In this document: positions 54,001 through 57,000 of the stretch, one piece after another | Position numbering within the stretch: the first letter of the stretch is position 1 | Layout of the letters: each line of letters opens with the position of its first letter | Source of the DNA: an uncultured Planctomycetales bacterium | GTDB lineage: Bacteria > Omnitrophota > Gorgyraeia > Gygaellales > Profunditerraquicolaceae | Direction: 5' to 3' | DNA: 64,000 nucleotides | NCBI GenBank assembly: GCA_964487475.1 | Contig: CAZAPM010000002.1 | Span: 1 to 64,000 of the forward strand | Program-made: the position numbers

Positions 54001-57000
54001 AATATTGGGCCTGGCCATCTTTATTCGAAAGATCCAGGATGCCTACCAGAACAGGCTTATTATACGTAAGCTCTTGTGGCAAAAGGTTTTTTATCTCTAC
54101 TTCGAGATCGATGTAAAAAATATCGCTTCTGAAGCGCAGGGTTTTCCGGATTTGCTTCTCAAGATCGGAAAATAGATACACTCCCTGGTTCTGATCAAGG
54201 GAGACCTTGCTAAAAGAAGAAGTATCACCTACCGTAACCCCCTGCGCCACTTGAATTGTTTCATTTGAAAATTGGGGAAAGGTTGCGCTAACTATAGCCC
54301 CAGATTGGCCAAACTCATATTCAATATTGTCCAATCTGACAAGCTCTGTTTTCTCAATCGTGGCAGGCAAAACAACAGAAGTAATATTAGCCGCTTTTGT
54401 AGAAATATCCGGCAGAGTGCCCGAGGTGACAGCGGGGACCACGTCTGTCTGGCTGATCGATCCCGCTGGTTTCTCCTGGTTTTCCGGCCGGGGGGTGAAC
54501 TTGCTCCACACCAAAGCCACCACAAAAGAGAGTACTATAGCCAAAAAAAGCCTTTTTTCAGTAGTCATCAACTATTCCTTATTGTAGAGGATCCCAACCC
54601 GAGTGGCGGGAAAAGGGATGGCATCTGCCCAGTCTGCGTAAAATAAAAAAAGTCCCCTTCAGTATCCCGTAACGCTCAACCGCGTCCACGGCATACTGAG
54701 AACAACTTGGTTCGAACCTGCAGGTGCGGGGCAACCATATCCGCACGTACTTCCTGTACCAGCGAAGCATCCGCAACGCGAGGCGCGCGAACATTACGCG
54801 GTAAGCTTTTTTCTGCCTTTTCTCCGTCGGCGGGCAATGACGTCCCGGCCGGCTTTGGTGCTCATCTTCTTACGGAAACCCTGGCTTCTTTTTCCCACGA
54901 TGTTCGTGGGTGTCTTCAGATTTTTCTTCATGGCGTATTATCCTTTCAAAAAAGCATGAACCAGAATTATAACACAAAGCTTAAGGCTGTCAACATTTAC
55001 CCTGCATAATTTTAAAAATTGTAACATACCCCGGCTTTAAGGTCAAGGCAAAAAAGAAGGGAGCTGATTTTTGTTGACTTCGTTTATATTTGCATTATAA
55101 TACATCACGCAAATGTATACGGTTTAACATTTTTGTATTCTCCGTAACGGTATCCACAGATTTATTAAAAGTGTGCATAAGCTGTTAATTATGTGGACAG
55201 TGGCTTTGTTCAGCTATGGATAACCTTCCTACAATATGGGAGCAAACCGGTGTTTCCCTGGAGTCAACTCTTGGAAAAACCGCGTTCGAAACTTGGATCA
55301 AGCCCCTCAAGCCAAGGCTTAAGGACGACGCCCTGATCATTCTCGAAGCTCCGGACGCCTTTTTCGGGGAGTGGGTGGACAAACACTACCGTGAGTCTGT
55401 GGAAAAGGCGGTTTCCCAGCTGGCGGGCCAGACCATCGCGGTACAGATCGAGATCGCTGCCGCGGCCAAGGACCCGCTGAACACCCCGGCAGGAGGTCCC
55501 AAAGAGCAATCTTCCGCGCCTGCCGTTCCGGTAAAAGATCCGGTGGCGCTGAACCCGCGGTATACGTTCGATAATTTCATCGTGGGTCCTTCGAACCGGC
55601 ATGCGCACGCCTACAGTCTGGCGGTCGCGGAATCTCCGGCTAAAGCCTATAACCCGCTGTTCATCTACGGCGGGGTGGGGCTGGGCAAGACCCACCTGAT
55701 GCAGTCGGTGTGCCATCACCTTAGAAGCAAGCAGAGCAACATCAAGATCTGTTTCATCACCTCGGAAAAGTTCACCAACGAGCTGATCGACGCCATCCAG
55801 CACCACTCCACGGCATCCTTCCGCCAGAAGTACCGTAACGTCGACATACTCGTGATCGACGATATCCAGTTCATCGCGGGTAAAGAATCCACTCAGGAGG
55901 AATTTTTCCACACCTTCAACGCCCTTTACGACGCGCACAAACAGATCATCATCTCCTCCGACAGGCCGCCCAAGGAGATATCCAATCTTCAGGACCGCCT
56001 GGTATCGCGCTTCAGCTGGGGGCTGGCCACCGATATACAACCCCCCGATCTCGAGACCCGGATCGCGATCCTGAAAAAGAAGATCGAGCGGGAACCGGTG
56101 CGTGTTCCGGACGACGTGATCTTTTTCATCGCCCAGCTGATCAAGACCAACATCCGCGAGCTCGAAGGCGCGCTGATCCGTACTATCGCCTATTCACTGC
56201 TCGAGGAGGAGGCCATCACGCTCCCGCTGGCCAAGGAAGTGCTTAAGGACCTGCTCAAGGAACCCAAAAAACTCATCACCGTGGATTTCATCCAGAGGTG
56301 CATTTCGGAAGAGTTCGGGGTTTCCCTTTCCGACCTCAAGACGAAACGCCGCAATAAGAACATCGTGGTGCCCAGACAGATCGCCATGTATTTGAGCCGG
56401 GAAATGACGGATCTTTCTTTGCCTGAAATAGGGACATATTTCGGGGGAAAGGACCACACTACGGTCCTGCATTCCTTCAATAAGATCAAAAAAGAGTTGC
56501 TTATTAACCCCGAGATCAAACAGAAGGTCGAAAGAGTTATACAGATAATCCGACAGTGAATCCTAAGGTTTTCCCAAGGTTGTTATTTACATAAGTCGTT
56601 TCAAAAATTGATGTTAGGTCTGGTTTTAACAGAAACGGAACCTATTACTATTAATACGGTTTTATATTTTAATACACTAATAATAGAAGGAGATGGTAAT
56701 GAAATGTCTGGTTGAAAAATCACAGCTTACAAGCGCGATACAACGGGTGCAGAATATCATCACGGCAAAAGCTTCTTTACCTATATTGTCGAATATTTTG
56801 ATCGAGACGGTACAGGATAAATTAAAGCTTACCGCGACCGACCTGGACATCGGTATAACCTGTGTAATACCTGTGAAGATCAGTGAGCAAGGAGCGATAA
56901 CCGTTCCGGCAAAAAGATTTTCGGATATCATTAAAGAGCTCCCCAGCGAAGAAGTGAATATTTCCACGAAAAAGAACAACCTGGTTTCCATAGAAACGGA

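What a model noticed while it worked through the whole genome (the two positions that open the first line are those of the whole stretch)
54568..54931. RNase P RNA without its protein subunit: rnpA deleted in order Gygaellales
rnpA is cleanly deleted from its conserved place: rpmH ends and yidD starts at once (C2:54931-54588). The catalytic RNA rnpB is intact (C7:14387-14720) and no protein-only RNase P is present. The same holds for the whole order, so these bacteria mature tRNA with an RNase P RNA that has no RnpA, either alone or with an unknown partner; most of these RNAs also lack P13/P14.
Evidence so far: RnpA family: 1 of 201 order genomes (a contig-end hit in a 5% contaminated bin; call 27) against 101 of 121 across the phylum (24); TIGR00188 0 in own at E 1 and 0 of 5 near-closed relatives (197, 198); a profile of 20 Omnitrophota RnpA proteins finds nothing in six frames (best E 0.32; 37). 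rpmH-to-yidD gap 9-126 nt in 30 of 30 order loci against 263-462 nt in the 18 RnpA-bearing loci where both genes were found (36). rnpB in 39 of 41 order genomes (29), own 179 bits with catalytic core aligned and 43 model positions of P13/P14 absent (38); P13/P14 absent in 16 of 21 readable order RNAs (41). HARP over cut-off in 0 of 101 (28), TIGR03875 0 in own (196).
(Added by a program. Inside this text positions count along the whole contig: contig position 1 is position 1 of the stretch shown here. "Call 12" and the like, gene names such as g00115 and contig names such as C1 are that model's own, and its searches are not shown. The text may have been shortened before it was handed on; [...] marks where a part breaks off. 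The agent that wrote the report below was given it as the finding of a first reader that could run no searches.)

Follow-up and report, generated by a model that had tools for sequence, protein, structure and literature searches.

The report
RNase P ribozyme without RnpA protein
A large group of uncultured Omnitrophota bacteria has deleted the gene for the protein half of the essential tRNA-trimming enzyme RNase P but keeps an intact catalytic RNA, so the RNA likely works without its usual protein partner, which model bacteria cannot do.

Summary
Confirmed, and wider than stated. rpmH and yidD overlap by one base (54794). No RnpA is found in this genome (unfiltered profile, best E 0.14). Across 234 order genomes the one real hit sits on a foreign contig. 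rnpB is intact. Nine further families show the same state (rnpB 33/33, HARP 0/33).

A new control makes retention meaningful: the 12 relatives that gained HARP have no detectable rnpB, and at the one locus read it is cleanly excised. RnpA-less RNAs keep the catalytic motifs almost unchanged. They drift at the P2/P3 junction and J18/2, where RnpA binds; this mapping is post hoc.

Correction: P13/P14 loss is unrelated, being absent in 25/30 RnpA-bearing RNAs too. tRNA leaders show no compensation. RnpM (0/80) and Pop5 (0/5) are not substitutes.

Most likely the RNA cleaves without a dedicated subunit (0.5); an unrelated helper protein is a close rival (0.35). Activity is untested. The printed precedent I found is the endosymbiont Hodgkinia. 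The scan noted this before on other genomes.

The parts
54794..54931 (-). rpmH, ribosomal protein L34 (45 aa); its stop codon overlaps the yidD start
   Evidence: TIGR01030 47.7 bits, over cut-off; sequence
54792..54796 (-). rpmH/yidD junction (TAATG), the place where rnpA stands in relatives; no remnant
   Evidence: sequence; gap 346-641 nt in 29 RnpA loci
54579..54794 (-). yidD, membrane protein insertion efficiency factor (71 aa)
   Evidence: TIGR00278 69.6 bits, over cut-off
53024..54571 (-). yidC insertase (ATG at 54568)
   Evidence: TIGR03592 220 bits
52839..53024 (-). Jag N-terminal domain only (61 aa)
   Evidence: NF041568 positions 2-54 of 203, below cut-off
55216..56559 (+). dnaA, divergent from rpmH; marks the canonical origin-proximal locus. 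The other half of the finding, rnpB, lies outside the window at C7:14387-14720 (+).
   Evidence: TIGR00362 563.7 bits; RF00010 179 bits

Best explanation
These bacteria have deleted rnpA and keep an intact RNase P RNA, which likely trims tRNA 5' leaders without a dedicated protein subunit. Shown: no RnpA, HARP, RnpM or Pop5 is found; the catalytic motifs (P4, J5/15 adenines, L15 GGU) are almost invariant; helices are kept by compensatory changes; tRNA genes lie in tandem and so need 5' cutting. Inferred: the RNA is still the essential enzyme, because relatives that gained HARP lost it. Inferred: the RnpA docking face is no longer constrained by RnpA, because the P2/P3 junction and J18/2 drift. 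Inferred and untested: small RNA changes (P18 one pair longer in most, A fixed at the position matching E. coli A333), a low demand for tRNA and general cellular cations or RNA-binding proteins would cover the rate the protein normally supplies.
For: Absence of RnpA. The profile found 8 of 8 held-out positives at E<=4.4e-14 and all nine divergent in-place RnpAs it was tried on. rnpB is present in 36 of 40 order genomes and 33 of 33 in nine sister families. HARP is over cut-off in 12 of 80 genomes, exactly the 12 of families f21, f25 and f31 that lack both rnpA and rnpB; 0 of 32 order genomes. In HARP genome G310 rnpB is excised: rnhA is followed by yebC about 22 nt later. In 55 RnpA-less RNAs: CGGCUUA 55/55, J5/15 AA 55/55, L15 GGU 53/55, GAGGAAAGUCCG 52/55. 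The P2 terminal pair is C-G in 29/30 RnpA-bearing RNAs but 20/55 RnpA-less ones, and still paired in 49/55. Four of the 8 columns that fall below 80% lie at the P2/P3 junction or J18/2, the RnpA site named in PMC9433436. Tandem tRNA genes 11-19 nt apart occur in G013.
Against: RNA-alone cleavage is negligible at 4.5 mM Mg2+ in standard assays (PMC9945441). Mutating L14, L18 or P8 impairs RNA-alone activity (PMC11513950), and 46 of 55 of these RNAs lack P13/P14, so they look weaker, not stronger. No consistent gain of peripheral structure was seen, and this genome's own P18 has the ordinary length. tRNA leaders and encoded CCA do not separate the groups. Drift is not one-sided: 17 of 85 columns relax in the RnpA-less set, but 11 columns are more fixed there. 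The footprint mapping was made after seeing the data, and kin are not independent. The CR-V G (E. coli G350; a metal-binding role is recalled, not from a call) is A in 19 of 55. An unrelated protein was not excluded.
Confidence: 0.5

Rival explanations
1. The RNA is the catalyst, but a dedicated protein unrelated to RnpA has taken over the helper role.
For: RNA-alone cleavage is negligible near physiological Mg2+. Most of these RNAs lack the L14 contact. J18/2 has shifted to lineage-specific forms (mostly AGAG[GA]AAU in the order, AGU-type in sister families), which could reflect a new partner. tRNA leaders show no compensation.
Against: RnpM/YlxR 0 of 80; Pop5 over cut-off 0 of 5. No new small gene sits beside rnpB; the neighbours are a zinc-ribbon gene, rnhA and yebC-ruvC-ruvA (names from my reading of the sequences). 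yebC stays when rnpB is deleted. In E. coli no other ORF of about 4000 rescued rnpA49 (PMC11251521).
Confidence: 0.35
2. rnpA moved elsewhere and diverged beyond recognition by sequence profiles.
For: RnpA is already divergent in the nearest RnpA-bearing family, f20 (Pfam E 2e-8 to 4e-14). The genome searches use a loose first look. Only this genome and 800 of 1,974 kb of the single-contig genome G322 were searched unfiltered.
Against: Divergent RnpAs remain at E<=4e-7 with the phylum profile and stay in place. No intermediate scores appear in 234 order genomes. The RNA's docking face drifts.
Confidence: 0.08
3. Another, unrecognised nuclease matures tRNA 5' ends, and the RNA is kept for a different job or is decaying.
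For: Some conserved positions near the active site vary. One genome, G190, shows none of RnpA, rnpB or HARP.
Against: Catalytic motifs are almost invariant, with compensatory pairing, across families of this clade. Where a known replacement exists, rnpB is gone in 12 of 12.
Confidence: 0.05
4. Assembly gaps or host-supplied protein explain the absence.
For: Nearly all genomes are incomplete assemblies. A cultured member of the class lives attached to archaea (preprint).
Against: The deletion is seen on intact contigs in 30 of 30 order loci and all 34 outside-order loci read. Archaea do not encode RnpA (PMC6380272).
Confidence: 0.02

Closest known systems
Canonical bacterial RNase P (type A RNA RF00010 plus RnpA PF00825/TIGR00188)
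   Same: Type A RNA over the Rfam cut-off, with P4, CR I-V, L15 GGU and P18; same rnpB neighbourhood as RnpA-bearing relatives.
   Different: No RnpA gene; the P2/P3 junction and J18/2 have drifted; P18 is one pair longer in most RNAs.
'Ca. Hodgkinia cicadicola' RNase P (PMC6581868; passages read)
   Same: rnpB present, rnpA apparently lacking, tRNA 5' ends processed; the authors suggest RNA-alone action.
   Different: Hodgkinia is an insect endosymbiont with a tiny genome, where host help is possible (my inference). Here the state spans hundreds of species-level genomes of 0.7-2.8 Mb with a clean deletion.
Aquificaceae HARP-only RNase P (PMC10941002, PMC6380272; passages read)
   Same: Same reduced locus, rpmH-yidD-yidC. 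Families f21, f25 and f31 show exactly this state.
   Different: This genome and its clade keep rnpB and have no HARP.
Archaeal type A RNase P RNA (PMC4919922; passages read)
   Same: Lacks P13/P14.
   Different: These RNAs keep P18; no Pop5 was found; P13/P14 loss is shared with RnpA-bearing Omnitrophota.

Membership tests
Bacterial RNP RNase P | Type A or B RNase P RNA with conserved catalytic core | tested here: met
   RF00010 179 bits, model 1-367; motifs in 55 RNAs
Bacterial RNP RNase P | One RnpA subunit (PF00825, RNR motif) | tested here: not met
Bacterial RNP RNase P | rnpA beside rpmH | tested here: not met
   one-base overlap of rpmH and yidD; 30 of 30 order loci
Bacterial RNP RNase P | Cleaves pre-tRNA at +1 | not testable with these tools
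   needs an assay
HARP-only RNase P (Aquifex type) | HARP gene (TIGR03875) | tested here: not met
   0 of 32 order genomes over cut-off; 12 of 12 in f21, f25, f31
HARP-only RNase P (Aquifex type) | rnpB absent | tested here: not met
   rnpB in this genome and 36 of 40 order genomes
Archaeal-type RNP RNase P | Pop5 subunit (PF01900) | tested here: not met
   0 of 5 over cut-off; the G322 weak hit lies in a LexA-like ORF
Archaeal-type RNP RNase P | Rpp21, Rpp29, Rpp30, L7Ae subunits | not tested
RNase P-free, leaderless tRNA (Nanoarchaeum type) | Each tRNA transcribed from +1 by its own promoter | tested here: not met
   tandem tRNA genes 11-19 nt apart in G013; no fixed -10 spacing; rnpB is kept

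The most novel reading that the evidence does not exclude
A large, old bacterial clade runs RNase P in vivo as a protein-free ribozyme. This state may also have been the stepping stone to HARP: rnpA lost first, HARP gained later, rnpB then excised (the clade uniting these genomes with HARP families f21 and f31 is not rejected, p-AU 0.325, and f31 shares the rnhA-yebC gene order).
Probability: 0.4. Interest if true: 0.92.

Novelty: new variant of a known kind. Interest (0 to 1): 0.76.

Why it matters
RnpA is held to be an essential cofactor in vivo and nearly universal in bacteria (PMC10941002, PMC6380272). A whole clade without it offers natural RNAs for testing directly whether RNase P RNA can sustain a cell alone, or else points to an unknown RNase P subunit. 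The same class holds all three states (RNA plus RnpA, RNA without RnpA, HARP only), so the switch from an RNA enzyme to a protein enzyme can be traced among close relatives.

Tried and rejected
1. P13/P14 loss as a mark of RnpA loss: rejected; absent in 25 of 30 RnpA-bearing RNAs.

2. tRNA leaders tuned for RNA-alone cleavage. It looked positive with 3 against 2 genomes and failed with 10. Pyrimidine at -1 was 0.72-0.97 in four RnpA-less genomes, 0.61-0.88 in five RnpA-bearing ones and 0.85 in one HARP genome. Encoded CCA overlapped too. About 30-37 tRNAs of roughly 40-46 were read per genome.

3. Leaderless tRNAs: rejected.

4. RnpM 0 of 80. Pop5 0 of 5 over cut-off; the weak hit in this genome has two stops.

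5. A new gene beside rnpB: none. yebC follows rnpB in 52 of the 55 RnpA-less loci and in none of the RnpA-bearing ones, but it persists after rnpB deletion.

6. A profile of small basic proteins shared with G322 and absent from an RnpA-bearing relative could not be completed. Only 800 of 1,974 kb of G322 were in hand and no RnpA-bearing whole genome. The lists showed no obvious candidate by eye.

7. Expression. One metatranscriptome held a 128-nt exact piece of this rnpB at depth 4, but nothing on the rpmH locus, and otherwise short cross-species pieces. This is no evidence either way.

8. Minimum-energy folding of the RNA was uninformative (z -1.27).

9. The first two RpoB trees were void because my filter dropped rows; onward is valid. 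The yidD scan gave no order names.

Full report
OBSERVATION. On the minus strand rpmH (54931-54794) ends on the base where yidD (54794-54579) begins, followed by yidC; dnaA diverges upstream. This is the canonical locus without rnpA. Among 80 yidD loci from many phyla, 69 had rpmH upstream. Of those, 67 carry an RnpA match in a 310-729 nt gap, and the two exceptions are Omnitrophota records.

IS RnpA ELSEWHERE? PF00825 finds nothing in this genome at E<=10. Two Omnitrophota profiles run without filters over 32,334 six-frame segments give best E 0.14 and 0.16. The first profile recovers nine divergent in-place RnpAs at E 4e-7 to 4e-16. The second recovers 8 of 8 held-out genomes at E<=4.4e-14. 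In the order, PF00825 is over cut-off in 1 of 188 genomes and the phylum profile hits 2 of 234. One of these has five stops. The other, G120, is a contig-end fragment beside a YidC 66% identical to that of G213, an RnpA-bearing family outside the order, so it is most likely contamination. rpmH was found in 38 of 40 order genomes, and the 30 loci read have gaps of 8-128 nt; 29 of 30 RnpA loci have 346-641 nt.

THE LOSS IS WIDER THAN THE ORDER. In a phylum sample, 151 of 205 genomes outside the order had RnpA. Of the 54 without, 45 had an rpmH match over cut-off. I read 34 of these loci and none has room for rnpA. The profile gave three weak hits among the 54 (E 0.002-0.023, two with stops; the third, in G317, was not examined). 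These genomes fall into two states. Nine families (f24, 26, 28, 29, 33, 34, 36, 37, 44) keep rnpB in 33 of 33 genomes and have no HARP. Three families (f21, f25, f31) have HARP in 12 of 12 and no detectable rnpB. The order has rnpB in 36 of 40 and HARP in 0 of 32; 40 of 40 RnpA-bearing genomes have rnpB. In HARP genome G310 rnhA runs almost directly into yebC, with rnpB excised. So, in these families, rnpB is lost where a replacement exists and kept where RnpA alone is missing. Single genomes G371 and G189 (rnpB, no RnpA, ordinary J18/2) and G190 (none of the three) lie outside the clade and are unresolved.

PHYLOGENY. On RpoB (78 genomes, 1134 columns) the order and the nine families lie in a fully supported clade that shares a deletion of about 80 aa. 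The clade also holds RnpA-bearing f20 and HARP families f21 and f31. The RnpA-less, rnpB-keeping group is one side of a branch only at low support (0.40; SH-aLRT 58). f20 groups with the HARP families (97-99), but the alternative, HARP families with the RnpA-less group and f20 outside, is not rejected (30 rows, p-AU 0.325). Gene order favours that alternative weakly: yebC follows the rnpB site in 52 of 55 RnpA-less loci and in G310, but not in the two f20 loci. One or two losses of rnpA fit; the order of events is not shown.

THE RNA. I aligned 91 RNAs: the best-scoring 30 of 40 RnpA-bearing, this genome plus the best 30 of 36 from the order, and the best 30 of 40 from outside negatives. From the last set I left out four genomes with no rpmH locus over cut-off (three from families that otherwise carry RnpA) and set aside two singletons, leaving 55 RnpA-less RNAs. 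Choosing top scorers favours RNAs with P13/P14. Catalytic motifs are almost invariant and helices are held by compensatory changes. P13/P14 is present in 5 of 30 RnpA-bearing and 9 of 55 RnpA-less RNAs, so its loss is unrelated. Of 85 columns at least 93% conserved with RnpA, 17 drop below that without it and 8 drop below 80%; 11 columns go the other way. Four of the 8 lie at the P2/P3 junction or J18/2, which PMC9433436 names as the RnpA site. Two more lie in P15 and CR-V (contact recalled, not from a call), and two in P8 and P11. The P2 terminal pair is C-G in 29 of 30 against 20 of 55. The position matching E. coli A333 (numbering by my alignment to the recalled J18/2 motif) is A in 53 of 55 against 10 of 30. 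The span from P15 to J18/2 is 28 nt in 22 of 30 against 5 of 55 (30 nt in 35 of 55); this genome keeps 28. These patterns fit release from RnpA, but they are post hoc and shared by descent.

SUBSTRATES AND HELPERS. tRNA genes occur in tight tandems, so 5' cutting is needed. Leader and CCA features do not separate the groups in 10 genomes. RnpM (0 of 80) and Pop5 (0 of 5) are absent, and no new gene neighbours rnpB. A genome-wide search for an unrelated helper was not achieved.

MECHANISM. I put 0.5 on cleavage by the RNA without a dedicated subunit and 0.35 on an unrelated helper. Diverged RnpA gets 0.08, another nuclease 0.05, and artefact or host supply 0.02.

LITERATURE. I read passages only, found by term, of PMC6581868, PMC10941002, PMC4919922, PMC9433436, PMC9945441, PMC6380272, PMC11513950 and bioRxiv 10.64898/2026.06.07.730766, and the abstract plus passages of PMC11251521. 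Hodgkinia has rnpB without rnpA. Aquifex has the same reduced locus with HARP. A 2019 survey found RnpA in nearly all bacterial genomes and did not search for the RNA. Nine searches found no report of this state in Omnitrophota. The preprint on 176 complete genomes does not mention rnpA or ribonuclease in its main text; its supplements and the 2019 genome list were not seen and could bear on this. Subscription journals were not searched. The preprint calls Gygaellales its largest order, dominated by one family, which fits the order searched here (203 of 233 in one family) but does not prove the name.

VERDICT. The feature is real and is a new variant of a known enzyme; interest 0.76. Earlier notes of this scan report the same loss on other genomes; they are not independent support.

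Noticed in passing
L132-L143 (families f21, f25, f31); L497:2329-3072: Three Omnitrophota families have HARP as the only RNase P found (12 of 12), from at least two separate branches. In G310 rnpB is cleanly excised between rnhA and yebC.
   Followed up: partly
G000:C1:149680-153066 and L246-L288: An RpoB deletion of about 80 aa (TIGR02013 positions about 220-297) marks the clade holding the order, nine sister families, f20, f21 and f31.
   Followed up: partly
G190 (L043, L230): No RnpA, rnpB or HARP was detected in a 92% complete genome outside the class, and its rpmH-yidD gap is about 20 nt. This may be an assembly gap or a further state.
   Followed up: no
G189 (L042, L102) and G371 (L289, L116): Two isolated genomes lack rnpA at the locus but have ordinary-looking RNAs (G189 scores 299.7 bits); these are independent recent losses or relocated genes.
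   Followed up: partly
window 52839-53024 (-): Jag is reduced to its 61-aa N-terminal domain; it matches only positions 2-54 of the 203-position family model.
   Followed up: no
L001:1072-1581 (+): The RNase HI-like reading frame runs about 80 nt into the 5' end of rnpB, and yebC starts 41 nt after it with no plus-strand terminator-like site, so the RNA is likely cut out of a longer transcript.
   Followed up: partly
L047 (G352): yidD was not detected either; yidC follows rpmH.
   Followed up: no
L002 (G120:C52): The contig carries rnpA-yidD-yidC of f16 type and is most likely a contaminant in that bin.
   Followed up: yes
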